Positions 13,853 through 29,563 of a DNA stretch of 64,000 nucleotides are shown here, one piece after another; within the stretch, counting starts at the first letter, position 1, and each line of letters opens with the position of its first letter. The translations under genes and the position numbers were made by a program. Source of the DNA: Rubripirellula sp. Lineage in GTDB: Bacteria > Planctomycetota > Planctomycetia > Pirellulales > Pirellulaceae. The stretch lies in contig OZ244207.1 of NCBI GenBank assembly GCA_965216875.1, positions 1,120,001-1,184,000 of the forward strand. Direction: 5' to 3'. Below the pieces are notes generated by a model that was not told the origin of the DNA, did no database searches, and was given only the letters and a program-made list of their open reading frames with translations.

Positions 13853-15955
13853 TCAGTCTTTGCGTACGATGAATTCAAAATTATGGGTGCCTTCCCCGAG
13901 CGCTACCTTCGAAACGGCAACGCGAAATCCGCCTGCGGCTGAGAGCGAATCTGGGATTGAAGCTTTGAAGGTTGCCGAATTGTTTTCGTGCTGAGCGACA
14001 AAGGTCACGGCGACCGGTTGATCTTCCTCATTCTCAGTACGCGAAATCAGCCCATTGATTTCCGCCGCGGGAATGGGGAATTCGGTCCAGGCGCCTTCGC
14101 TCGTTTCGGTGAGCAGGTGAAAGGTGATCGTGCCATCGGAGATCGGCATGACTTCGGCGTGAAACAGTTGCTCGCCTGTTTGATGAGTGGTGTGGCCGAT
14201 CGCTACGATCTGGCCTCCGTGAGGCGCGTCGGCATGCCGATGCCCATGATCATGTGGGTGCGAGTGCGCTCCCTCAAAGTCGTCGTGCTCGTGGTCATGA
14301 GCGACACCGTCGGCATGAACATGACGGTGCTGGTGTTCGACATCCTCTTGCGTGTTGATGCTTTGATTCAAACGCGTTTCGTGGGGCGAGCGGTCTTGAT
14401 CGCGGTAGGACCGAACCCAACGTGTATTGGTTTTCAGCAGGTCGGAAACGAGGGCTCGCGTCGCCTCGATGTCGACCGGGTCATGCGCAAGTTCGTGTTC
14501 GAGGGCTTCAAGCTTCTTGCGAATCAAATAGCCCTGCATCCGTTGATAGGGTCTCAATTCACCGCGTCGAATGAGCGTTCCAACCTCGAGTCGACGGCTC
14601 CATTCGTCCCAAATCGGAATCCAGAACATTGCATGTTCAGCGTTGCCGCTATTGGCGGCCGAGAGCGTTTCTGCGCGTGCAACCTTGATCTCTTCGAGCG
14701 ATTCCTCGGCCGACGGATAAAACGCATAGCACATTACGATGCTGAGCGCAATCAGGCCGACGAGCATCGTGGCGCCAACGGCTTGCGGCCCAACGTTCCT
14801 GTCAAACGAACCGACGCGTCCTGCATCTTTTCCGGCCGATGCGTTCCAGGATTCCAGCTTGGCCTCGTCGAGTCCGAATGCTCGAAACAGAAGCCCCAAC
14901 ACGACCAACAACGCCATCGCGCTCAACGCAACGGCCTCACCGATGTCGATGTCCTTTTTGAGCTTGTCAGTGATGAGTCTCGACGAAAGTGTATCGAGGT
15001 TGTGAACCGGGTTGGTGTAGATATCGAACGCGTGCGTGTGGTCAAACGGTTCGGCACCGGGTGGGAAAAGAGGTTTGTTGATGGCGTAGGCGATGCCGAC
15101 GACGATCAGCAATAGCGAGCCTAGCCAGATGCCGACGGAGCGACCGCCGAAGGTCTTGCCGAACCATATGAGGGTTGCAAGGTTGGCGCCGGTGCCAAGT
15201 ACCAACAAAACGAATGCCGCCCCTGGCGAATTGGCGTGTTGGAACATCATGCCAAGCTGACTCATTGCCAACATCGGCGTTGCGTAGGCTGGCAGAGCAA
15301 CCGCGGTCATCTTGGCCGGCGCGAGCCAGTCGTCGCGATTGACTTCACTTTGCAGCGTTCCCCACGGAAGCACGGCGGCAAGGAGCACCAATCCCAGGAG
15401 CCCCACGATTGCCCAGCCGCCTGATCGACCAGCCAATTCGCGTGTGATTTGGACGAGAATTGCGAGCAGGCGTGTGACGCCAATCACCTCGCTGTCTTTC
15501 ACGTCGTCGGCCCGATCGTCTTCGGATTGGGATACACGCCGGTCCCATACGACGCCGACCAAAGTCACAACGATCAATGATCCGAATGCAAAGAAAAGGA
15601 TCACGTAGGGTCGCGCCAGCGTCAGCCCATAAAGCAGCGACAGCGGATTGAACAGCGGTGCGGCGAGTGCGAACGCACTCATTGCACCCGGCTTGATGCG
15701 ACAGCGCCGCATCTCAAAAAGGATGGGCAGAACACCGATCGAGCAGACGGGCAACAGCATGCCGACTGCCCAAGATTGCGGCAGGCTTCGCAAAGAATCA
15801 CCGCCAAACAGCTTACGCGTGCCCTCTTTGCCGAGGTAGTAGCGAAGGACAGCGGCGATCAGCAAACCGACCAGCAAGGTTGGCGTTGCTGAGATTGCGC
15901 CTTCGAGCAGACGGATGAATCCGCCCACGGTCGCTTTGGTCAACCAATCGCTCAT
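13853..15955 (-). CDS. Predicted permease (ArsP/DUF318-like) with a His-rich C-terminal extension
   Basis: [10 protein letters not shown]...[11 protein letters not shown] permease motif, many TM helices, HDH-rich tail followed by APHGG. Confidence 0.75.
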
Positions 15956-16659
15956 GAATCACCCTCGACTTTGTCGCTAGGGTGCTCGTGGTCATCATGG
16001 TCGTGGTCGTGGCCATGATCGTGATCACCGTGCGCATGATCATGATCATGATCATGATCATGCCCGTGTCCGTGCTCGCCGTGATCATGCCCGTGCTCGC
16101 CGTGGGGATGTCCATGCTCGTGCGAATGCCCATGGTCGTGATCGTGCCCATGGTCGCCGTGATCATGCCCATGCCCATGATCGTGATCATGATGATGGTG
16201 CCCGTGAGGCTGGAACCGACCGGCCCGTCGTTCGTCCTCCGGCAATTGGCTCCATGCAGCGTCGATCAACACACATAGGCTCTCGGCCTTTTGAACGCTC
16301 TCGTCGTCCCAAGTGCCATCGTTGTCGAGCAGACGAAGTCTCAACGATTCGCTTGCTTGGTAGATCGGATCCCACTGCTTTTCGGGCATGCTTGTGTCGG
16401 CTGCAAACTCAGGCGTCCACGAAACCAAGTCAACCAACTCGGAGGCCGCTTCTTCGCTCTTGAGGTTCGCGAGCCGCCGGCGGATCTTTGTTGACGTGTC
16501 ACCAAGGCTCTCGGGCCAATGATGAGGAGTGTCGTGGCTGTGATCGTGCAGCGATGTCTTCTCTGGGTCGCTCGAGCACCCGCCGGCGCAGACGGCGATC
16601 GCAACCGAAAAAACGATCGCGAGATTCAAAGGGAAAGATGTTCGATTGCTGGGCATCAT
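15952..16659 (-). CDS. His-rich lipoprotein, putative metal-binding
   Basis: Start overlaps the MoxR stop (ATGA); lipobox-like CAGGC; long (HD/HG)n C-terminal tail. Confidence 0.8.
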
Positions 16660-17627
16660 CGGTACTCTGGTACTGGTACGTCGTCCATGATCTTTGAGAT
16701 GACGCTCTCGACGTCGCCGCCTGTGGTGAGCAATCGGACGGACAAGACGGGACGGGCGACATGTGCAATGTCGCTGGGCGTGACAAAATCTCGCTGATTC
16801 ACGACGGCCCAAGCTTGGGCGATGCGTTGCCAGTGCAGCATGCCACGGGGACTGACGCCAAGTTGAATCGAAGAGTCGTTGCGTGTCGCTTCGACGAGAT
16901 CGACAAGGTATTCGCGAACGCGCGGGTGGACGGTGATTCGCGAGCTGTGTTGTTGCAGCCGAGCAAGCTCATCAAGCGGCAACACAGGTTCGAGGTCCAA
17001 GTTGTCGTGCGTGCCGCTCGCGGCAGACTCCAAAATCTCGAGCTGAGCGGAGCGATCGGGATAGCCAATTTCGAGCTTGATGGAGAAGCGATCGAGCTGG
17101 GCCTCGGGCAACGGGTAAGCGCCGTGCGAGTCGATTGGGTTCTGTGTCGCGATGACAAAGAAGGTGTCGGCAAGCGTGTGCGGCACAGCGTCAATGGTGA
17201 CTTGCCGTTCGGCCATCGCTTCGAGCAACGCACTTTGCGTTCGCGGGGTGGTGCGATTCAGCTCGTCGGCCAGCATCACATCAGCAAAGACAGGGCCCGG
17301 GTGAAACTCGAACTCGCGAGATTTTTGGTTAAACAGGTTGAACCCCGTCACGTCCGTTGGAAGCAAGTCGGGCGTGCACTGGATTCGTGCTAAACGGCCA
17401 CCGAGACAGGCCGCCAACGCCTTGGCCAGCGTCGTTTTTCCTGTTCCGGGAAGGTCATCAAGCAAGAGGTGACCACGAGCGAGCAAGCAGGCGATCACGA
17501 GGTCGATTTGATCCGATTTGCCTAGCAGGACACGTCCGAGTTGCTGGCGGAGTGCGGCGAGGTGGTTTTCCAAGTCTTGCGCTTGAACTGGGATCGGCGT
17601 TTCTTGTTCTTTTGTCATAGCGTTCAT
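16656..17627 (-). CDS. MoxR-family AAA+ ATPase
   Basis: [64 protein letters not shown]. Confidence 0.95.
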
Positions 17628-21367: not shown

Positions 21368-21802
21368 TCAGGCGCAAGGTGGTCCGCGCGAAGAAAGCGC
21401 CGACAAGAAGACTTGCTCCGGCGCAACGTCCGAGCAAGGAAGGGTGGTTTCGAGCGTTTCGAGTGGTTGCCAGAAGAGGGTGGGGGTCGCCGCTAGCGAA
21501 CCTGCGCGAGTGGCGAAGAAGCTCTGGCAAATCGAGCAGCTGTCGCTGTCATGATCGTGACCATGCTCGACCGGGGATTCTTCGTGCCCTGATTCGGAAG
21601 CTTCCGTCGAATCGCAGTGATGATGGTGACTACAGCACTGATGTTCATGCTCCTCTTCAACGGGAGCCAAATCGCCCACATGAGCCGCGTGTGGATGGTC
21701 ACAGCCATGGTGCCCAACGTGCATCCAGCCAGCCGCGTTGCCCACCAAAAGGGCCGCAATAGCAAGGAAACTCGTTAGTTTTGAGGCGTGGCGCACAGGC
21801 AA
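21368..21802 (-). CDS. DUF2946/CruR-like His/Cys-rich leader protein with C-terminal RGPP
   Basis: Signal/TM segment, His clusters, CSIC (CxxC), ends SSRGPPCA*; first gene of the operon. Confidence 0.75.
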   Translation of the reverse strand: MPVRHASKLTSFLAIAALLVGNAAGWMHVGHHGCDHPHAAHVGDLAPVEEEHEHQCCSHHHHCDSTEASESGHEESPVEHGHDHDSDSCSICQSFFATRAGSLAATPTLFWQPLETLETTLPCSDVAPEQVFLSALSSRGPPCA

Positions 21803-21981: not shown

Positions 21982-22350
21982 GTAGGCCGGATCAAGGAGC
22001 GACAGCGACACAGATCCGGCATTCTCGAACGTCCCCTGTAGTTTTCGCCGCTCTCCCCCTTCGCTGCGGTTGCAATCCATCCACCAACTCCGACCCTGGT
22101 GAAGCCACCGAGAGCACAGGGTTCACCGAGAGATTGAGTTGACCTGGAAGCGCGTTGGCAAGGGCCCGAGGCCTCACGGCCGGCGGCTCACTGGTAGGCC
22201 GGATCAAGGAGCGACAGCGACACAGATCCGGCATTCTCGCACGTCCCCTGTAGTTTTCGCCGCTCACCCGCCCTTCGCTGCGATCGCAATTCATCCACCA
22301 AGTCTGCCCCTGCTGAAGCCACAGAGAGCACAGGGTTCACCGAGAGATTG
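21982..22350 (+). repeat. Two tandem ~212-bp composite repeats (REP family C, spacer, CCACAGAGAGCACAGGGTTCACCGAG element)
   Basis: Near-identical units starting at 21982 and 22194. Confidence 0.85.
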
Positions 22351-22474
22351 ACCGCCGCATGCTCTTCTCCGTGAACGCTGTGCTCTCTGTGGCTCGCCTT
22401 CTCTTGATCTCCCCATGTGACGCCTCCCCCATGTGACGCCTGTTGGGTACCAGCGTCGATCGCGAAACCCCGGG

Positions 22475-23026
22475 TCAGCACCAGGTCCATTTCGGATCTT
22501 CATAGATTAGGCAACGGAAACCGAACACGGACAGCCAGTAGGAGCGATGAGCGACACCCGGTCCCTCGGTCTTAGCCGCATGGTCGCAGGCGACGACGAG
22601 CGGGCAGGGCACCGCGGGGCCACCGACGTAGAACCATGGATCGTCGAGTTGTTCGGGGCGGTTCAGCTCGACGGGATCAAAATCAAACCGATTGACCGCT
22701 CGGTTGGGCGATGCGGCGGCAAGTGTTGCTCCCATTTTTCCGGCAAGTTCGGATTGAAGAGTATGGCTGGTCAAAGCGGTCACGATCCAGAGTGTCAAGT
22801 AGGTCGTGGCGAGTGCGACAGCTGCGTAGGCATTGCGACGCATGGAAACGTGCATCGCCGCTGCGAAGCTGAGGTGGATCAGAGAGAACGCGATTCCAAT
22901 CATGCCTTCCATCAATACCATCGCCACCACGATGGCAACGCCAATGGATGTGAGAAGGAACGAACGGAGCGAGAAACGCGATCCGATGGGACGATCGTTG
23001 CTCGATGCGGCGTTACTCTGATTCAT
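22475..23026 (-). CDS. Hypothetical membrane protein (probable distal gene cassette)
   Basis: 183 aa, RFSLRSFLL N-terminus, TM helices; co-oriented with the cassette array. Confidence 0.65.
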   Translation of the reverse strand: MNQSNAASSNDRPIGSRFSLRSFLLTSIGVAIVVAMVLMEGMIGIAFSLIHLSFAAAMHVSMRRNAYAAVALATTYLTLWIVTALTSHTLQSELAGKMGATLAAASPNRAVNRFDFDPVELNRPEQLDDPWFYVGGPAVPCPLVVACDHAAKTEGPGVAHRSYWLSVFGFRCLIYEDPKWTWC

Positions 23027-23159
23027 CGTCTACCGAGGTTCATCATTTGCCGTGTTGTGTTCCACGCTAAGGCGTTGCTTCATTCAAACGCGATGTTGTT
23101 CACAACGGGGCGGTGATGTTCAAAACCGGGCGGTGATCGGAAAGCGGTGTAGTCTCATC

Positions 23160-23252
23160 TAAAGAATGTCAGCGATCACACGGCAGCGACGAGCGATCAT
23201 CTTTATCATTTTTGTCGATTTCGCCACCCGTAGTGCACGACATGGTTAAACA
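23160..23252 (-). other. attC-like site, degenerate
   Basis: + strand GAAT GTCA GCGATC ACACGG CAGCGA...TCGCCAC CCGTAGTG C ACGAC ATG GTTA; same architecture as the intact sites. Confidence 0.55.
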
Positions 23253-23480
23253 GGCGCACCTTGCTCATATACTCGCCTCCCGCACGTGCGAGTGCCTCGT
23301 CCACTTCTGTGAACGCGGCATGTGCCAGTTCGGTATCGGAAAGGTCAGCGGCGTCTGCGGACAGCGTCGGTGTGATTGTAGTCATCGCTTTCGGCGGTTG
23401 TCCTCGTTCCTGCTCATGGAGCGAGCATCCGATGAGTGCAGCGAAAGAAGCGGCAGTCTGGATCGAGCCATCGTTTCGGT
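23253..23480 (-). pseudogene. Cassette remnant (ORF 23206-23490 runs across both flanking attC-like sites)
   Basis: ~230 bp between two attC-like sites with no clean start or stop inside. Confidence 0.4.
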
Positions 23481-23573
23481 CGGGTAACACGGATCAGCGG
23501 GGATGGGCGAAAGACGTATAGGCAGAAGAAAAAACGGACCAGCTGTTCTCCGTGTGCATCCGTTGGTTCGTCG
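23481..23573 (-). other. attC-like site
   Basis: + strand TAAC AC GGATC AGCGG GGATGG...CTGTTC T CCGTGTG C ATCCG TTG GTTC; lies just after the stop of the upstream cassette gene. Confidence 0.7.
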
Positions 23574-23595
23574 ATTTCTTCGTGTGCAACAGACT

Positions 23596-24132
23596 CTACG
23601 TCGTTTTCGGATTGGATTTGAGTTGAGAAATCACTCCCGTCCGCCACATGTGTTTTGCAGATGGTGATGCAAATTCCGGGAACGACGCTTTTGCAATGTC
23701 CTTGAAGTATTGTCCGACCCAATGCCAAGCTTGGTAGGACTCGCTATCGCAGTAGAAGCCCCACGATGGATTGAGCAAGTCGATCATGAGATCCAGAGTG
23801 TCATCACCAGCGCGGAGTTGAATCGCAAAATCCTGCCCCGAGGGCAGGCGTTGAAAAATTGGATTCCCGTTGTAGAACGCGCGTGGTTCGTTCGCAGCGG
23901 CTCGGATCAAATCCAGATTTTTCGCGGTCAGTGGCGTTCCGGTAGCAAGGATCGTTGCGTCCGAGAGTGGACCATGTGAGCGTTTGCTGATGATGAAAGT
24001 TTCGCCATTCGTTGCGCTGTTTACGATGCGGCGCGTACGCGGGCCAAGTACAGAATCGATATCAAAATCGGGCGATCCGAACTCAAAGACAATTGTGCCT
24101 GAATCAGACAAGTCAACGCTCCTGGTGCACAC
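23596..24132 (-). CDS. Hypothetical cassette protein; start probably GTG 24132
   Basis: The ORF-track N-terminus (METRLAGPG) is translated attC sequence; the rest is a ~178-aa open frame. Confidence 0.6.
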   Translation of the reverse strand: MCTRSVDLSDSGTIVFEFGSPDFDIDSVLGPRTRRIVNSATNGETFIISKRSHGPLSDATILATGTPLTAKNLDLIRAAANEPRAFYNGNPIFQRLPSGQDFAIQLRAGDDTLDLMIDLLNPSWGFYCDSESYQAWHWVGQYFKDIAKASFPEFASPSAKHMWRTGVISQLKSNPKTT

Positions 24133-24144
24133 GTTTAATCTGTG

Positions 24145-24237
24145 CGGCGGACGAACCGCGTCACCGGGGCCCGCGAGTCGAGTTTCCATTAATAGATCCG
24201 AAACAGTCGGCTTCCGTGCGCACGTGATGGTTCCGCC
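24145..24237 (-). other. attC-like site
   Basis: + strand GGAC GAAC CGCGTC ACCGG GGCC...GGC T TCCGTG C GCACGTG ATG GTTC CGCC. Confidence 0.65.
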
Positions 24238-24335
24238 ATTCTACACGCAGCAGAAGCGAGCGAAGGCAGTGGACATTATTCTAACGCGGTGGCGACGGAC
24301 CAACGATATCGCACGAGCTCATCACATCGAAAGCA

Positions 24336-24434
24336 TCGTTAACGGCTCCCCAAGCGTGCGGTGAAACCCCGTCGATGACAACAGCACGCACAGCATCGTG
24401 TGTCAGCATTCCCGCTTCCGGCCCAGGTTCGTCA
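24336..24434 (-). other. Possible highly decayed attC-like site
   Basis: TAAC...GTTC ends at the expected spacing, directly after the pseudogene stop; the stem is poor. Confidence 0.3.
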
Positions 24435-24438
24435 AACG

Positions 24439-24681
24439 TTAGCGGTACAGAATCCTGCGTGTGACAAGATGACCAATGATTGCGTCTCCCCGTTTGATGC
24501 AAACGCCCGACGTGCCCGAGAGTGGATTGCGATCATCGATCGAGCATTCGTATTCTCAGACCTGGTCACCGTCGCTCAAGAGTGTCCTTAGACGCTACCA
24601 GTCAGACTGGACCGCTCCCCAGTCACGGTTGCAATCTTCCTGCGAAAGTTGGGATGAGAGAATGAGCCACGAGTAGTCCAT
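24439..24681 (-). pseudogene. Decayed cassette gene with two in-frame stops
   Basis: MDYSWLILSSQLSQEDCNRDWGAVQSDW*RLRTLLSDGDQV*EYECSIDDRNPLSGTSGVCIKRGDAIIGHLVTRRILYR*; lies between attC-like sites. Confidence 0.6.
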
Positions 24682-24697
24682 ACATGTTCGCTCTGTT

Positions 24698-24789
24698 GAT
24701 GGAACGTTACGAAGCACACGGCGCCGACCGATACCGTGAACTCAAATCGAAACCAATTTCGCCGCTCGTGGGCATTCGGTCGTTATCGG
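24698..24789 (-). other. attC-like site, degenerate
   Basis: + strand GAAC GTTA CGAAGC ACACGG CGCCGA...TCGCCGC T CGTGG GC ATTCG GTC GTTA. Confidence 0.55.
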
Positions 24790-24921
24790 GTATTCGGCAA
24801 TCCGTCAGCCCTGCGTCCAATCGTCATCGTGGGGTTCAAAGTCTCCTGGTTGCCGTCCTTCGGTGCACGACACAACCATCCGTGACGGATCGTTGGACGC
24901 AGGCGGGGCATCCTCTGTCAT
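24790..24921 (-). pseudogene. Truncated cassette ORF (MTEDAPPASNDPSR..., 38 aa) with a strong RBS
   Basis: GTTCTACG core, then AGAGGAG, then ATG at 24921; stops early. Confidence 0.45.
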
Positions 24922-24935
24922 GAGTGCTCCTCTTT

Positions 24936-25020
24936 CGTAGAACCTCCACAATCACCCGGCACGCGTGATTGAGAATCAAGTTGAAAATGCGTGCGCGAGC
25001 AGATTGGGTTGTTATCGGAT
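24936..25020 (-). other. attC-like site, internally deleted
   Basis: GAAC CTCC ACAATC ACCCGG CACGCG...CGCGAGC..ATTGG GTT GTTATCGGAT; the upstream gene's TAA lies within R'' (CGATAAC). Confidence 0.7.
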
Positions 25021-25572
25021 TTTCGGGTGGATTAGGATCAGCTTGCTGCGAAAATGAAATGCGCGGCCAGCGTAAATTGTTTTTGCAGGTGTGTCGGCAG
25101 GGTAGCGAGGACTGCCCGAGAATTCGCCAGTTTCATATGCGAGCACTTCGAACTCGCGTCCTAAGAAACGAGCTGCAAGCTCAGACCGCGTGGGTTTTTG
25201 GCTCGGATCGACGGCTTCGGCGAAGGCGTCGTAGTTTGGCCGGAACGGGATTGCATTGCGACTAAAATAGTCGATATCAAAGTCCATTCTGATCGGCGTG
25301 GAGATAGGCTGATTGTCAACTCGAGTGACGAGGACACGGTAGTCGTCATCGGAATCGGTCATCTTGTTGTTGGGGTTAGTGACGAGCTTGCACGTTATCG
25401 GTGCGACGTACCCAAGAGGCTTACCGAGCTTTCCCGTAACGCTCTCGCCGGTGAGCGACCGTACGTCAATCTTGTCCTGTTCAGCTGTCTGCGCAATCGA
25501 GAGCCTCGGAATAAGTAACCCCAGCAGTAAGCCGACAAACGTTTTGAGAATCGTGTCCTGCATTGGCTTCAT
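25012..25572 (-). CDS. Hypothetical secreted cassette protein
   Basis: 186 aa with a signal-peptide-like N-terminus; the cassette starts GTTATCGGAT and ends ATCCGATAAC (exact complement). Confidence 0.75.
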   Translation of the reverse strand: MKPMQDTILKTFVGLLLGLLIPRLSIAQTAEQDKIDVRSLTGESVTGKLGKPLGYVAPITCKLVTNPNNKMTDSDDDYRVLVTRVDNQPISTPIRMDFDIDYFSRNAIPFRPNYDAFAEAVDPSQKPTRSELAARFLGREFEVLAYETGEFSGSPRYPADTPAKTIYAGRAFHFRSKLILIHPKIR

Positions 25573-25643
25573 CCGATAACGATCGGGATCACACGGGAAT
25601 CAAAACGAACCACTGCCGCTCCGCAACATCGCATGCTTCGCAA
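25571..25643 (-). other. attC-like site, degenerate
   Basis: TAAC GATC GGGATC ACACGG...GC T CCG CAA C ATCGC ATG CTTC (GTTC mutated). Confidence 0.6.
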
Positions 25644-25649
25644 CACACT

Positions 25650-26183
25650 TTACGGACCAGCATCAGCGAAGCAATACAAGTCATCTTCATCTGTGACAAC
25701 TTTGTATTCGACGACACCGGACCAGTCGTACGTTTGCGCAAGATGCCGATCGGAATCGAGTGGAAGTCCGGTGCGAAGGGCAGTGTTGATGTGGCTGATG
25801 AAAGCGTCCGCAGCTTCAGCGTGTGCGGTTGCGTCTGAGTCGCCGCATGATTCCAGCCAGAAGATTAGGCTAAATGCGGCCATCATGGTTGCGCGCAGGC
25901 TTGAAGCCGGCGCGGTATCACCGATTGGCAGGTCAAGATCGTTCGACCCGTAGTGAACATCATCAAAAAGAGCATTCGTCGCATTGGCGCCATCAAGAAC
26001 TCGCTTGCGTAGGGATGGGTCGATGTTCTGCTTCGCCGACAGTTCGGCTGCGGCGAGCAGCGCATTATGGATGCGCTGCAGATTGTTGCGCTGTCGTTTC
26101 AGTCTGCGAATAGGGTTGCATTGCCTCAGTGAACGCTGGGACGCGCGAATCGCAAGAAACAGACGAAGAGGCCAGTCATCCAT
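25650..26183 (-). CDS. Hypothetical cassette protein
   Basis: 177-aa ORF fitting between two attC-like sites. Confidence 0.65.
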   Translation of the reverse strand: MDDWPLRLFLAIRASQRSLRQCNPIRRLKRQRNNLQRIHNALLAAAELSAKQNIDPSLRKRVLDGANATNALFDDVHYGSNDLDLPIGDTAPASSLRATMMAAFSLIFWLESCGDSDATAHAEAADAFISHINTALRTGLPLDSDRHLAQTYDWSGVVEYKVVTDEDDLYCFADAGP

Positions 26184-26202
26184 TTGTTATGCGTGTCTCT
26201 AC

Positions 26203-26296
26203 TGGCGAACGGCAGTCATCACCGAGCACTCGGGAGTTGAGCATCCAATGCGTGAACACCGACCACCGGTCCTCCGTGACATCCGATGGTTATCGG
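26203..26296 (-). other. attC-like site, partly degenerate
   Basis: GAAC GGCA GTCATC ACCGA GCAC...TCC T CCGTG A CATCCG ATG GTTA. Confidence 0.65.
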
Positions 26297-26452
26297 CCGT
26301 TCTGTTCTAGGACGTGAGCTCAACCGTTCCGCCTGTGTCGCTCGGCGGATCACCCAAATGATACCCATTCTCTGGTGGTGCCGCAGTGTAGTCGATCCCG
26401 GCTCTATGCAGCGCCGACATTGCACGAAACGCGATGTCGGCCCAACGCTGCC

Positions 26453-26543
26453 TGGCGAACGGCCGTGATCAGCGGGCACGGCCCATGTGGTCAACATTTG
26501 TAACAGCCCCATGCCGTGCTCCGTTGCATCGCATGGTTCTGCG
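26453..26543 (-). other. attC site, intact
   Basis: + strand GAAC GGCC GTGAT CAGCGG GCACGGC-loop-GCCGTGC [T] CCGTTG [C] ATCGC ATG GTTC: R box, unpaired spacer, L box and two extrahelical bases. Confidence 0.85.
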
Positions 26544-26547
26544 GTTT

Positions 26548-26958
26548 TCACTTCCGTGTCGTAGCGTCAATCCGCCCGAACTCAAATTCATCTTCGTGGC
26601 AGTAAAACACCAACCAATTGTGGTCGAGCGACAAGATCAAGGCGTCATCACGGCCAGGGCATAAGACGTCACGCCAATGGGTGAGGATGAATTCGACCGA
26701 CGTGTCGAACACAGAGTCCAGCCCAAAAATGATACGCAATTCCGTTCCAGCGCACCGATCAGCAAGCCATTGATCGACTAAGTCGGAATCACCTGCCGCA
26801 TCGCATTGCTCAATCTGAGTAACGGATGCGTCGTTCAATCCATAGCGATTTGTTGACGACTGTCCAATCTGCGATTCATACGCGTTCGCGGCGTTATCCG
26901 GTGACAGCCACCGAATCGAGTCACCGAAGTGTTCGTACTGGTCGCGGCGAAAGTTCAT
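26548..26958 (-). CDS. Hypothetical cassette protein; acidic and aromatic, resembling immunity-type proteins
   Basis: 136 aa; the cassette starts GTTCTGCG and ends CGCAGAAC (exact complement). Confidence 0.75.
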   Translation of the reverse strand: MNFRRDQYEHFGDSIRWLSPDNAANAYESQIGQSSTNRYGLNDASVTQIEQCDAAGDSDLVDQWLADRCAGTELRIIFGLDSVFDTSVEFILTHWRDVLCPGRDDALILSLDHNWLVFYCHEDEFEFGRIDATTRK

Positions 26959-26985
26959 GTTGTCGAGGAGTTACATCCAAACAAT

Positions 26986-27078
26986 CGCAGAACGACCGCG
27001 ATAACCGAGTCGCGGCGATTGATTTTCCATTGTCAAAAACGAGGACTCCGCGACTTCGGTTCATCGCATGGTTCCCCG
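26986..27078 (-). other. attC site, intact
   Basis: + strand GAAC GACC GCGAT AAC CGA GTCGCGG-loop-CCGCGAC [T] TCG GTT [C] ATCGC ATG GTTC. Confidence 0.88.
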
Positions 27079-27081
27079 CCA

Positions 27082-27822
27082 CTATTTGGTTCGTTCGCCG
27101 AAGCAGCGTTCCATTTGATTGACTATATCAGAAGGAATAGCTGAGCCGTGAAGAAAGGAAAGCTCAAGGTAACCGTTGCCGTTCGCAAGAATATAGTTTT
27201 GCTCTGTGATACCCCAGTAGGGTCCTTGCCAGCGGTACGGTTTCGCAGGCGGTTCTTTGGTATGCTGGACAACGTCAATCACAATCCCGTTCGACTTCGG
27301 TCCAACGACCGCGACCGTATCGTGACCGTATTCTCCATCTTCAAGTTCGGGGTGCAACTGAAACTCCCGACTTCGGCTACGAATTGATAACGAGGTGTCG
27401 TTGATTTCAATCGTATCCAATGGCATGTCGTGAGACGTCATGAATTTCTCGAGTCGTTGTTTCAAGTCTACCAACCCATTGACGCGTCCCTTCACCGCCA
27501 TTTTATCAACCGGACCGTTCCAGTCATTGATGTCTGCCTCGCCTTGCATGTTGACATAGACATGCTTTTTTGAACCATCAGAGCACCCGTAGAAAATGTT
27601 CCATGCTCCACCTTTGCCGTCACCCTCGGCGTTGCCGTACAAACTAACGCCAATTGGATAGTATCGTGACGCGTCATCCGCCAGAAGTGACTCGCCCTTC
27701 TCCAATGCGGCTGCAAGCGTCACGGGCGGGCGGTTAGTATTGACCCAACGGTAGAGCGATCCGTATGCGATCGCGGAAACGAGAGACAGTGCGGCAGCGA
27801 TTGCGAGTCTGGTTTTCAGCAT
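27082..27822 (-). CDS. Hypothetical secreted/membrane-anchored protein, first cassette
   Basis: 246 aa with an N-terminal signal/TM segment; the cassette starts GTTCCCCG and ends CGGGGAAC (exact complement). Confidence 0.78.
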   Translation of the reverse strand: MLKTRLAIAAALSLVSAIAYGSLYRWVNTNRPPVTLAAALEKGESLLADDASRYYPIGVSLYGNAEGDGKGGAWNIFYGCSDGSKKHVYVNMQGEADINDWNGPVDKMAVKGRVNGLVDLKQRLEKFMTSHDMPLDTIEINDTSLSIRSRSREFQLHPELEDGEYGHDTVAVVGPKSNGIVIDVVQHTKEPPAKPYRWQGPYWGITEQNYILANGNGYLELSFLHGSAIPSDIVNQMERCFGERTK

Positions 27823-27831
27823 GGCTTTAGT

Positions 27832-27852
27832 CGGGGAACTTATTTATCAGCT
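27832..27852 (-). other. attI-like recombination site
   Basis: Minus strand AGCTGATAAATAA-GTTCCCCG: AT-rich, non-palindromic sequence before the GTT crossover of the first cassette. Confidence 0.6.
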
Positions 27853-27993
27853 GGTGAACGGGTGAGAATACGGCGTGCTGGGTGTTCTCGCCGAGTGGAC
27901 CTTCGGTACGGTCGGTGACACGCGCCTTGATCCTCGTATTCTCACTGGTCGCTCCAGTATTCTCACCGGTTAGGTGGTAACCACTCTGGGGGT

Positions 27994-28022
27994 ATTCTCG
28001 CCGTTGACATTTGGGTTGTCAA
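27994..28022 (-). promoter_or_regulatory. Putative Pc-like sigma70 promoter reading into the cassette array
   Basis: Minus strand TTGACA (28022-28017), 17 nt, GAGAAT (27999-27994). Confidence 0.55.
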
Positions 28023-28344
28023 ATTGTTGGATCGCGCCGGGCTCACTCTTATTGGGCAATGATTGGCCACGAACAACGCGGGAAGAAACGCATAAGGATT
28101 CTTGCGCTCGGCTTGTTGTGTTTTTTTGTGTTTCTTGTGGCTCACTCATCCATTAGGCGAAAAGGACGAACCACGAATTGGTCGAATGACACGAATGAAG
28201 AACTGTTGCGCGAGTGCTATTGGTGAGGTTCTCTCGGGAAGGCTGCCACGAGAAACACGAGAAGGCACAAAGAGATAGGAAGGCCCGGCCGCTTACGCGT
28301 TCACGGCTCAGTGGAGTTCGTTCATGTTCTGGCGAAGGTTGCTG

Positions 28345-28610
28345 CGGATGCGTGAGTAAGTGTCCGTCGGCTCATGGTTGGGTTCGGTCGTGCCGGATCT
28401 GTGTCGCTGTCGCTCCTTGATGCCGGCCTACGAGAATGGATGCGTGAGTAAGTGTGGGCCCGCGGCTAGCGCCGTCGGCTCAGGGTTGGGTTCGGTCGTG
28501 CCGGATCTGTGTCGCTGTCGCTCCTTGATGCCGGCCTACGAGAATGGATGCGTGAGCAAGTGTAGGGCCCGCGGCTAGCGCCGTCGGCTCACGGGGTGGG
28601 TTCGGACGCA
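28345..28610. repeat. BIME-like tandem array (~108-bp period) alternating REP family C and family A variants
   Basis: Family C copies at 28391-28431 and 28499-28539 with near-identical linkers. Confidence 0.8.
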
Positions 28611-28618
28611 CGTGTTGG

Positions 28619-29563
28619 CTAAAACGCTATGTCGGTTACGACGGGGCGGTGGTCTGATAGTTGCGTGTCGATCGCTTGGTAGTTGTTGAAAGTCCATGTG
28701 TCGGGGATGACGATCCAGTCGATCAATTGATGCGGGCTTTCGGACGTGAAAGTGAGCTGTGGCTCGCTCGGAGCCTCGATTGGCCGGCGAAGAAACGCTT
28801 CCGACTTGTCGATGAGCTCGATCGCGTTTCGTCCCGCTTCGTCTTTCTGGTGATTGGGAAAACCTTCGGGCGTCGAGTTGAAGTCTCCTGCAAAGATGAC
28901 TGGCAAACCAGAGTTCTTTGCCAATGTCGTCAAGATCTCGATCGATTCACAACGAATCGTTTCGCTCCGATGTGAGAGATGGATCGGGACGATTCGAAAG
29001 GGCTGCTTGGGGTGGTGGACAACGCAAACCATCCCCCGTTTGCGACCAGCGATGAACGATTCGACCGCAGAAACGGGCGGGTACTCGAGCGGCTGCAACT
29101 CTCTTAGTGGGTAACGTGACAGGACTGCGTTGCCAAAGTTCCAGGTCCAACCTAGAAAACGTGCTTCCACATTTCGCTGCCGCGCCACGTAGGGGTATCC
29201 GGCCTTCAGCGCGATCTGTTCGGCTTGATCAACGTGATGACTCCAGCTGCAATCGAAGTCGACTTCGTTGAGAACCACAACGTCAGCATCGGTTTCGGTT
29301 AGAAGCTCGGCGATTCGGTCGATCCTGGCGAGTCGTGTGACGGCCGGTTCGCCGTTCCAATTCTTCGGAACAAGGCCTCGTGTATGCGCGATGTTGTAAC
29401 AAACCAAACGCAATCCCTCGTGTCGGCCCGGTTTGGCATGAGGCGCGTTGACCGAGAGCTGATCAACGCGATTGAAGAGACTTCGGGCTCGAGACCAGAG
29501 TGTGGGCAGGGCGACGAGGAACAGGATTGCCAGGATGCAAAGTAGGATTCGCTTCGGTCGCAT
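28619..29563 (-). CDS. Endonuclease/exonuclease/phosphatase (EEP) family protein
   Basis: CYNI, DVVVLNEVD, GNAVLSRYP, IHLSH, AGDFNS, IDWI, SDHRPV. Confidence 0.9.
   Translation of the reverse strand: MRPKRILLCILAILFLVALPTLWSRARSLFNRVDQLSVNAPHAKPGRHEGLRLVCYNIAHTRGLVPKNWNGEPAVTRLARIDRIAELLTETDADVVVLNEVDFDCSWSHHVDQAEQIALKAGYPYVARQRNVEARFLGWTWNFGNAVLSRYPLRELQPLEYPPVSAVESFIAGRKRGMVCVVHHPKQPFRIVPIHLSHRSETIRCESIEILTTLAKNSGLPVIFAGDFNSTPEGFPNHQKDEAGRNAIELIDKSEAFLRRPIEAPSEPQLTFTSESPHQLIDWIVIPDTWTFNNYQAIDTQLSDHRPVVTDIAF

What the first reader, a model, noticed from the sequence alone, without database searches (positions are those of the whole stretch)
22475..27850. Integrase-less integron cassette array (CALIN-like) with about 10 attC-like sites
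Seen: small unrelated minus-strand ORFs, each followed by a ~70-95-bp imperfect palindrome with the layout (G/T)AAC-4nt-GCGAT-C/A-arm...arm-[T]-arm-[C]-ATCGC-ATG-GTT(C/A). The clearest are at 26453-26543 and 26986-27078. Established: this is attC architecture (R box, unpaired central spacer, L box, two extrahelical bases on one arm). The extrahelical bases lie on the 3' arm of the + strand, making the minus strand the top strand, which matches gene orientation. No integrase lies where one is expected (+ strand beyond 27850). Inference: a cassette platform serviced in trans by a distant IntI, or one that has lost its integrase. All cassette genes are unrecognised orphans.
Basis: partly seen in the sequence, partly recalled or inferred. 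Interest (0 to 1): 0.85.

Follow-up and report, generated by a model that had tools for sequence, protein, structure and literature searches.

The report
Satellite integron array, integrase deleted
This is a real integron gene-cassette array that kept its docking site but lost its integrase gene; it is one of four such docks in a planctomycete genome with a single integrase, which likely still loads new genes here from 0.67 Mb away while the older cassettes decay.

Summary
Real, and a known kind (CALIN). Eight attC sites score clearly and a ninth is degenerate; all fold on the + (bottom) strand with strong covariation and occur only in four arrays genome-wide. intI is cleanly deleted here, at a junction shared with a second satellite. 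Only the two attI-proximal cassettes are pristine; the other seven sites are damaged or mismatched. Evidence for servicing in trans: another satellite shares a 590-bp cassette without mismatch with the main integron, and a related strain in a metagenome has the same deletion junction and flanks but apparently other DNA from the attI crossover on. No cassette of this array is shared within the genome, and activity is untested. attI-headed integrase-less arrays also occur in two other Pirellulaceae-like genera. The scan noted this architecture before, on the other arrays of this genome and in other genomes; one printed precedent exists (Shewanella prophage).

The parts
27833..27851 (-). attI simple site: L box, 5-nt spacer, core GTT (crossover between 27839 and 27838)
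   Evidence: identical over this stretch to the site beside the genome's intact intI
27852..28025 (-). platform leader with repeated GTGAGAATAC-type boxes (exact copies at 27862, 27936, 27957)
   Evidence: 175 of 189 nt identical to the intI-linked leader; all 10 exact genomic copies of the 10-mer lie in the four platforms
27994..28022 (-). predicted Pc-like promoter, TTGACA-17-GAGAAT, pointing into the array
   Evidence: 2 sites found, 0.5 +/- 0.6 in shuffles: weak alone; both hexamers kept in 4 of 4 platform copies
28027..28052 (+). intI deletion junction: leader joined to DNA that follows intI in the complete integron
   Evidence: likeness to the intI locus ends at 28025 and resumes at 28052 with post-intI DNA; same junction in the 237-kb satellite
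27082..27822 (-). cassette 1 gene, 246 aa, hydrophobic N-terminus, no known family
   Evidence: 80.4% DNA identity from 27839 to 27072 to an attC-flanked cassette in a Pirellula MAG; 14 other homologues
26987..27077 (+). attC1, intact (bottom strand on +)
   Evidence: 95.6 bits; 18 of 18 pairs; R'' complements the cassette start 7 of 7
26548..26958 (-). cassette 2 gene, 136 aa; weak lead to CdiI-immunity/DUF2947-like proteins
   Evidence: 3 other homologues; atlas scores 0.92-0.93 with low recognition, lead only
26454..26542 (+). attC2, intact
   Evidence: 74.8 bits; 18 of 18 pairs; cores match 7 of 7
26297..26453 (-). 157-bp remnant unit, only a 37-codon frame, mismatched cores
26204..26295 (+). 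attC3, arms poorly matched (possibly a chimera of two sites)
   Evidence: 51.4 bits; 11 of 18 pairs
25650..26183 (-). cassette 4 gene, 177 aa
   Evidence: homologue (36%) flanked by attC on both sides in G069
25574..25641 (+). attC4, degenerate: about 24 nt shorter, R'' core altered
   Evidence: sequence; not detected by CM or HMM
25012..25572 (-). cassette 5 gene, 186 aa, predicted signal peptide by eye
   Evidence: weak homologue (26%, E 7e-6) is the first cassette of a G001 integron; start and R'' cores match
24937..25017 (+). attC5, about 10 nt deleted from the 3' arm
   Evidence: 48.3 bits; alignment gap; 8 of 18 pairs
24789..24936 (-). 148-bp remnant unit, 38-codon frame, mismatched cores
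24699..24788 (+). attC6, near-canonical
   Evidence: 45.1 bits; 16 of 18 pairs
24238..24698 (-). 461-bp unit without a long ORF
24150..24236 (+). attC7, spacer next to R' shortened or core altered
   Evidence: 52.4 bits; sequence
23596..24105 (-). cassette 8 gene, about 169 aa
   Evidence: ORF; cores match 7 of 7; 0 of 150 family genomes hold a homologue
23482..23572 (+). attC8, spacer shortened
   Evidence: 49.1 bits; 16 of 18 pairs
23253..23481 (-). 230-bp unit whose frame runs into the next attC
23161..23251 (+). attC9, R' core reads ATT in place of GTT
   Evidence: 47.3 bits; 13 of 18 pairs
22475..23026 (-). terminal cassette-derived gene, 183 aa, no attC after it (immobile tail)
   Evidence: 1 of 3 homologues is attC-flanked (G170); kept in the related strain of run X8

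Best explanation
This is a copy of the genome's integron platform (attI plus leader) with the integrase gene deleted, heading nine attC sites, and the single intact IntI encoded 0.67 Mb away likely still inserts and excises cassettes at this attI in trans. Shown: attC anatomy, the attI and leader copy, the deletion junction, one intact IntI with R-K-H-R-H-Y and the IntI-specific insertion, four platforms. Inferred order of events: the integron was duplicated; a first deletion removed most of intI (state kept at 3542 kb), a second removed the rest, and that integrase-free platform was itself copied or the two descend from one such copy (window and 237 kb share the junction). Inferred working: IntI would recombine the folded bottom strand of an incoming attC with this double-stranded attI at G|TT, placing the newest cassette first, under the predicted Pc; cassettes 1 and 2 are the recent arrivals, and cassettes 3-10 are an older, decaying tail that is largely immobile.
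For: attI core identical and leader 175 of 189 nt identical to the intI-linked copy. One IntI over the TIGR02249 cut-off, 414 bits, no stops; best structure match VchIntIA 2A3V, E 2e-66. Freshness gradient: attC1 and attC2 have 18 of 18 pairs and perfect core chaining, the next six scored sites 8-17 of 18 pairs and 1 of 6 perfect, although the platform itself has drifted 7.4%. Cassette 2 of the 237-kb satellite equals cassette 2 of the complete integron with no mismatch over 590 nt, bounded by the crossover and the attC end, while those two platforms are only 88.4% identical. Run X8 holds a strain with the same flanks, terminal gene and deletion junction (15 differences in 301 nt), whose flank contig turns unlike at 23117, and a contig with two window-specific leader alleles whose likeness stops at 27837 with 2.5 kb of other DNA beyond. 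Cassette 1 exists as an exact unit among other neighbours in another genus. Same layout in G015 (4 heads, 1 broken intI) and G025.
Against: No cassette of this array is shared with the other three arrays, so direct proof of exchange concerns a sister satellite, not this one. Seven of nine sites are damaged or core-mismatched. X8 is a metagenome: its contigs do not span the locus, and the attI contig differs at 13 of 156 letters, as much as paralogues do, so it may be another copy. Only 2 against 1 informative leader sites group window with 237 kb. In G002 I found shared cassettes but no clear platform copy heading its other arrays. No recombination or transcription was measured.
Confidence: 0.7

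Rival explanations
1. Frozen relic: a once complete second integron lost intI and has only decayed since; strain differences come from deletions between look-alike attC sites by homologous recombination, without IntI.
For: 7 of 9 sites damaged; short units with mismatched cores and the poorly paired attC3 look like cross-cassette deletions; nothing shared with the main array. Integrase inactivation with fixed arrays is described in Xanthomonas (10.1101/2025.06.18.660453, passages).
Against: attI core is unmutated whereas the 3542-kb copy has ATT and 4 of 23 perfect junctions; the two proximal cassettes are pristine; the sister satellite with the same deletion shares an identical cassette with the main integron; X8 likeness ends at the crossover.
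Confidence: 0.24
2. The array arose without a platform, by cassette insertion at a secondary chromosomal site (attG) or by a rearrangement that split the main array.
For: Both routes are described for CALINs (PMC4889954, passages; 10.1101/2022.09.11.507474, passages).
Against: A 189-bp attI leader and the DNA that follows intI are both present, joined across a deletion; the main integron keeps its own attI.
Confidence: 0.04
3. The hairpins are REP elements or terminators and not recombination sites.
For: The genome has a REP-like repeat (204 BLAST pieces) on both sides of the array.
Against: That repeat is a different sequence; attC-like hits at E<1 are 88 of 88 inside four arrays, one strand each, none in the reversed genome; cores chain cassette to cassette in 29 of 37 units of the main array.
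Confidence: 0.01

Closest known systems
[quoted passage not shown] 2016, PMC4889954; passages read)
   Same: At least two attC sites, no intI nearby, unknown cassette genes, IntI elsewhere in the replicon; loss of intI is one of the four origins that paper lists.
   Different: Retains attI, leader and predicted Pc, so it can in principle gain and express cassettes; that paper searched attI only for classes 1-3 and says the sequence is unknown for most integrons. No intI pseudogene is left, yet the deletion can be mapped.
[quoted passage not shown]
   Same: An attI heads both the complete integron and an integrase-less array in one genome.
   Different: Here three such arrays lie 0.67-1.7 Mb from intI on the chromosome, with graded deletions, a cassette shared exactly between arrays, and recurrence in related genera.
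Sedentary chromosomal integron; Planctomycetes attC class (Ghaly et al. 2021, PMC8352920; passages read); VchIntIA (PDB 2A3V)
   Same: Homogeneous ~91-nt attC family, divergent intI, attI with GTT core, newest cassette first; a Planctomycetes attC model exists.
   Different: First extrahelical base is C in 45 of 50 sites instead of the usual G (G-to-C is tolerated in VCR, PMC2727003, passages); cores are often GAAC/GTTC; IntI is 523 codons long with N- and C-terminal extensions; the cassette store is split over four loci. I could not score the sites with the published model.
Xanthomonas CALINs at fixed loci away from ilvD (10.1101/2025.06.18.660453; passages read)
   Same: Extra arrays at conserved loci apart from a single intI.
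   Different: The passages seen do not report attI at those arrays; many of those integrases are inactive.

Membership tests
attC site | R'/R'' cores AAC...GTT pairing in the folded strand | tested here: met
   3 core pairs 99.3% paired over 50 sites; altered in attC4, attC9 and possibly attC7
attC site | unpaired central spacer, then L'/L'' stem held by covariation | tested here: met
   4x3-nt bubble; 13 of 15 stem pairs change on both sides
attC site | two or three extrahelical bases on the R''-L'' arm of the bottom strand | tested here: met
   C (45 of 50) and T (48 of 50) on the 3' arm of +; the first is C, not the usual G
attC site | recombined by IntI as a single bottom strand | not testable with these tools
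   needs a recombination assay
gene cassette | one ORF from a GTT crossover to an attC whose R'' complements the cassette start | tested here: met
   cassettes 1, 2, 5 and 8 (4 of 9 units); the other five have mismatched cores
gene cassette | the unit occurs among other neighbours elsewhere | tested here: met
   cassette 1; homologues of genes 4 and 10 attC-flanked; gene 8 not found in 150 genomes
CALIN | at least two attC sites | tested here: met
   8 scored plus 1 degenerate
CALIN | no intI nearby | tested here: met
   only IntI at C1:1814967-1816538; tblastn and blastn find no intI piece at this locus
complete integron | intI adjacent to the array | tested here: not met
   deleted
complete integron | attI at the head of the array | tested here: met
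   same sequence as at the intI-linked site, first cassette starts at its GTT; function untested
complete integron | Pc promoter driving the cassettes | tested here: inconclusive
   consensus match 10 of 12 kept in 4 of 4 copies; no transcript data
REP/terminator repeat | dispersed genome-wide, independent of cassette arrays | tested here: not met
   88 of 88 hits at E<1 in four arrays

The most novel reading that the evidence does not exclude
Pirellulaceae-like planctomycetes run a distributed integron: the attI-promoter platform is copied around the chromosome, sheds its integrase, spreads further in that form, and the docks stay in service, so one IntI shuffles cassettes among several separately expressed first positions. 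Many arrays filed as dead CALINs would then be working satellites.
Probability: 0.55. Interest if true: 0.65.

Novelty: new variant of a known kind. Interest (0 to 1): 0.42.

Why it matters
Whether integrase-less arrays are relics or live parts of the cassette system is open, largely because attI cannot be searched for in most taxa (PMC4889954). Here the origin of one such array can be read from the sequence (duplication, then stepwise intI deletion), and the genome offers a ready test set: one integrase, three near-identical attI sites and one with a mutated core. Several docks would let a cell express several newly captured genes from first positions at once while keeping a single, controllable recombinase. 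The array itself carries no recognised resistance, toxin or defence gene.

Tried and rejected
Family scans of cassette proteins: no Pfam match over cut-off for 9 array ORFs (one sub-threshold DUF1275 hit), none in PADLOC or NCBIfam for 7; atlas gave nothing for gene 1. The leader DNA was not found in 60 related genomes. Two metagenome pattern scans for the leader: 0 hits, then 2 hits that proved to be chance matches beside glgX-like genes with no attC (that script ended in an error after printing this). Unconstrained folding ranks only the best sites and does not discriminate. The short units have no DNA or protein match in the genome or in the loci then held. Sequencing runs: no RNA holder listed; X5-X7 carry only short pieces with no differences, likely traces of the same strain, so they are not independent; lack of X8 cover over 23300-27830 is not counted as evidence by itself; contigs of the organism's own runs X1 and X4 confirm the assembly and show no excision joint, which contigs would not be expected to keep. 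The genome CM search scored only 150 of 2025 candidates, so the genome-wide claim rests on the unfiltered nhmmer scan. Not run: IntegronFinder and the published Planctomycetes model (not available), structure prediction, complex prediction. Paper searches found no description of several chromosomal attI-headed arrays served by one integrase; the library lacks most subscription papers, and I read passages only, no supplements.
Full report
Setting. The window is C1:1120001-1184000 of a single-contig 8.26-Mb genome. Flanking DUF1501-type genes (recalled label) and homologue names such as Pirellulaceae and Pirellula point to a planctomycete. The array lies between a MoxR/transglutaminase/DUF58-type cluster (labels recalled from the translations) and an endonuclease/exonuclease/phosphatase gene, with REP-like repeats on both sides.

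The observation. I seeded a profile with eight hand-picked hairpins and scanned the genome: 77 hits, all in four clusters. A second round with 48 sites gave 88 hits at E<1, all in those four loci (14, 8, 39, 27), one strand per locus; six hits at E 1-10 lay elsewhere and the reversed genome gave none under E 1. Fifty sites were aligned: 18 consensus pairs, 94.5% of cells paired against 68% in shuffles and 28-45% in slid controls, 13 pairs with changes on both sides. On the folded strand the layout is AAC, a 4-nt by 3-nt bubble, a 5-bp stem, an unpaired C (45 of 50), about 6 bp, an unpaired T (48 of 50), a further stem and a variable loop. This is attC anatomy with + as bottom strand, consistent with genes on minus. 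C in place of the usual G changes VCR recombination little (PMC2727003, passages). The covariance model finds 8 sites in the window; since they were in its training set I repeated the test with a profile from 27 sites of the distant integron only, which recovers 7 of 8 and gives 0 hits in 200 resampled regions. A ninth site at 25574-25641 is degenerate and seen only by eye.

The genome has one IntI (414 bits, cut-off 265), a 523-codon frame at C1:1814967-1816538 with R278, K303, H409, R412, H435, Y444 and the IntI-specific insertion aligned to VchIntIA. The DNA between its first cassette and its start has four copies in the genome: 237 kb, this window, 1815 kb and 3542 kb, 88-93% identical over 189 nt. 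Each heads one of the four arrays. In the window the attI core is identical to the intI-linked one, and cassette 1 starts at its GTT. Beyond the leader, likeness to the intI locus stops at 28025 and resumes at 28052 with DNA that follows the intI stop. The 3542-kb copy keeps codons 14-60 of intI; the window and 237-kb copies keep none and share one junction. All three rejoin the same post-intI point, which suggests two successive deletions and then copying of the integrase-free form; support inside the leader is thin (2 sites against 1).

State of the array. In a cassette that arrived as a circle, R'' complements the cassette's own start. This holds for 29 of 37 scored units of the main array (the first 27 in a row), 10 of 14 at 237 kb (the first 9), 4 of 23 at 3542 kb, whose attI core reads ATT, and 3 of 8 here, 4 of 9 when the degenerate site is added. 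attC1 and attC2 have 18 of 18 pairs; the other six scored sites have 11, 8, 16, 17, 16 and 13, against a mean of about 17.6 for 27 main-array sites. Three units are 148-461 bp without a long ORF. The last gene has no attC. So the head is fresh and the tail is decayed.

Is it serviced in trans? No cassette here is shared with the other arrays. But cassette 2 at 237 kb and cassette 2 of the main integron are identical over 590 nt, from crossover to attC end, with unrelated neighbours, far closer than their platforms (88.4%). Run X8, an algal metagenome, holds a strain with 51 differences in 2028 nt of the left flank; one 14-kb contig carries that flank and the terminal gene and turns unlike at 23117, with a 25-nt attC-like piece in the remainder; another spans the deletion junction with 15 differences in 301 nt; a third shares two window-specific leader alleles, and its likeness ends at 27837 with 2476 other letters beyond. 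The simplest reading is that intI was lost before the strains split and the cassettes changed afterwards. The contigs are not joined and the third differs at 13 of 156 letters, so this is suggestive only, and deletion between similar attC sites needs no IntI.

Cargo. No family match. Cassette 1 is 80.4% identical at DNA level, from 27839 to 27072, to a unit between attC sites in a Pirellula MAG and has 14 other homologues. Among 150 family genomes, homologues were found for gene 1 in 1, gene 2 in 1, gene 4 in 1, gene 8 in 0 and gene 10 in 3. The gene 4 homologue and 1 of the 3 gene 10 homologues are attC-flanked on both sides; the gene 2 homologue lies inside an array but not directly against a site. 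Gene 2 resembles CdiI-immunity/DUF2947-like clusters, a weak lead.

Relatives. 18 of 61 genomes (G000 included) have an IntI over cut-off. The two congeneric genomes have the same attC family but no attC at E<1 in the three 20-kb stretches fetched at the orthologous flanks, which in G002 are 1.6 Mb apart. G015 (closed, another genus) has four arrays and one broken intI; its four heads align from the AAC core on, 77-80% identical over about 80 nt, with no IntI match in the 5-5.5 kb fetched around the three others. G025 (closed) has a large array and a second one headed by an attI copy with no IntI in 20 kb. G001 has three copies of one platform with intI nearly whole, 5'-deleted or truncated, and a 508-bp cassette 99-100% identical in five arrays. 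Against generality: in G002 a cassette is shared by three arrays at over 99.5%, but of six further array heads fetched only one gave a short (48-nt) match to a platform. These genomes were chosen because they had IntI, so they give no frequency.

Comparison with what is known. It meets the definition of a CALIN (PMC4889954, passages) and fails that of a complete integron only on intI. An attI-bearing CALIN beside a complete integron is in print for a Shewanella prophage (PMC9892861, passages), trans mobilisation of CALIN cassettes is commonly proposed (PMC9668308; 10.1101/2025.06.18.660453; passages), and a Planctomycetes attC class exists (PMC8352920, passages). PMC3108266 (passages) notes that planctomycete LexA does not use the E. 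coli box, so regulation here is open. Seven searches found no paper on several chromosomal docks served by one integrase; coverage is limited. This scan's earlier notes describe the same four-platform layout from the other arrays and similar satellites in other genomes; my reading was formed before I saw them, I share their word 'satellite', and they are not independent support.

Verdict. A genuine integron array of a known class, in a variant form: attI retained, integrase deleted, likely still serviced. What this window adds is the shared deletion junction, the fresh-head/decayed-tail gradient and a strain comparison. Interest 0.42.

Noticed in passing
window 27852-28025 and the three other platforms: All 10 exact genomic copies of GTGAGAATAC lie in the four leaders; leaders of G001, G025 and G015 carry their own different repeated boxes. 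Candidate accessory IntI or regulator sites, unexplained.
   Followed up: partly
L001:1066-2637 (C1:1814967-1816538): The IntI frame is 523 codons, with about 145 residues before and 60 after the TIGR02249 match; open frames of 440-625 codons are common among relatives.
   Followed up: no
L001 about 1056-1072: A near-palindrome upstream of intI, absent from the 3542-kb copy, could be a repressor box; untested.
   Followed up: no
window 27830-27839; L007 9716-9726; L040 and L041 heads: The first cassette begins with the same 10 letters (GTTCCCCGAC) at two of four G000 docks and at both G025 docks examined, although the genes differ; possible insertion preference or chance.
   Followed up: partly
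C1:1801429-1801971 and 1813182-1813727; C1:1791151-1791703 and 1793985-1794537: Two cassettes are duplicated within the main integron at 95% and 97% identity.
   Followed up: no
window 21982-22351 and 28364-28608: A REP-like repeat of about 42 nt (204 BLAST pieces genome-wide) flanks the array in opposite orientations and also follows intI; it may have seeded the duplications or deletions.
   Followed up: partly
window 28053-28270 and C1:243274-243430: The post-intI element has its five long matches only at integron loci, one of them inside the 237-kb array.
   Followed up: partly
window 28619-29563 and C1:247352-248047: The EEP-family gene beside this platform has its only paralogue (27%) near the tail of the 237-kb array; probably chance.
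   Followed up: no
L018:12878-15340; L019 and L020: In G002 a transposase-like frame sits between intI and the first cassette; G001 arrays contain XerC-like recombinase genes (31% to IntI) among the cassettes.
   Followed up: no
window 13853-16812 and 21368-21802: Three histidine-rich proteins flank a MoxR/transglutaminase/DUF58-type cluster, conserved in order in G002; likely metal handling, not examined.
   Followed up: no
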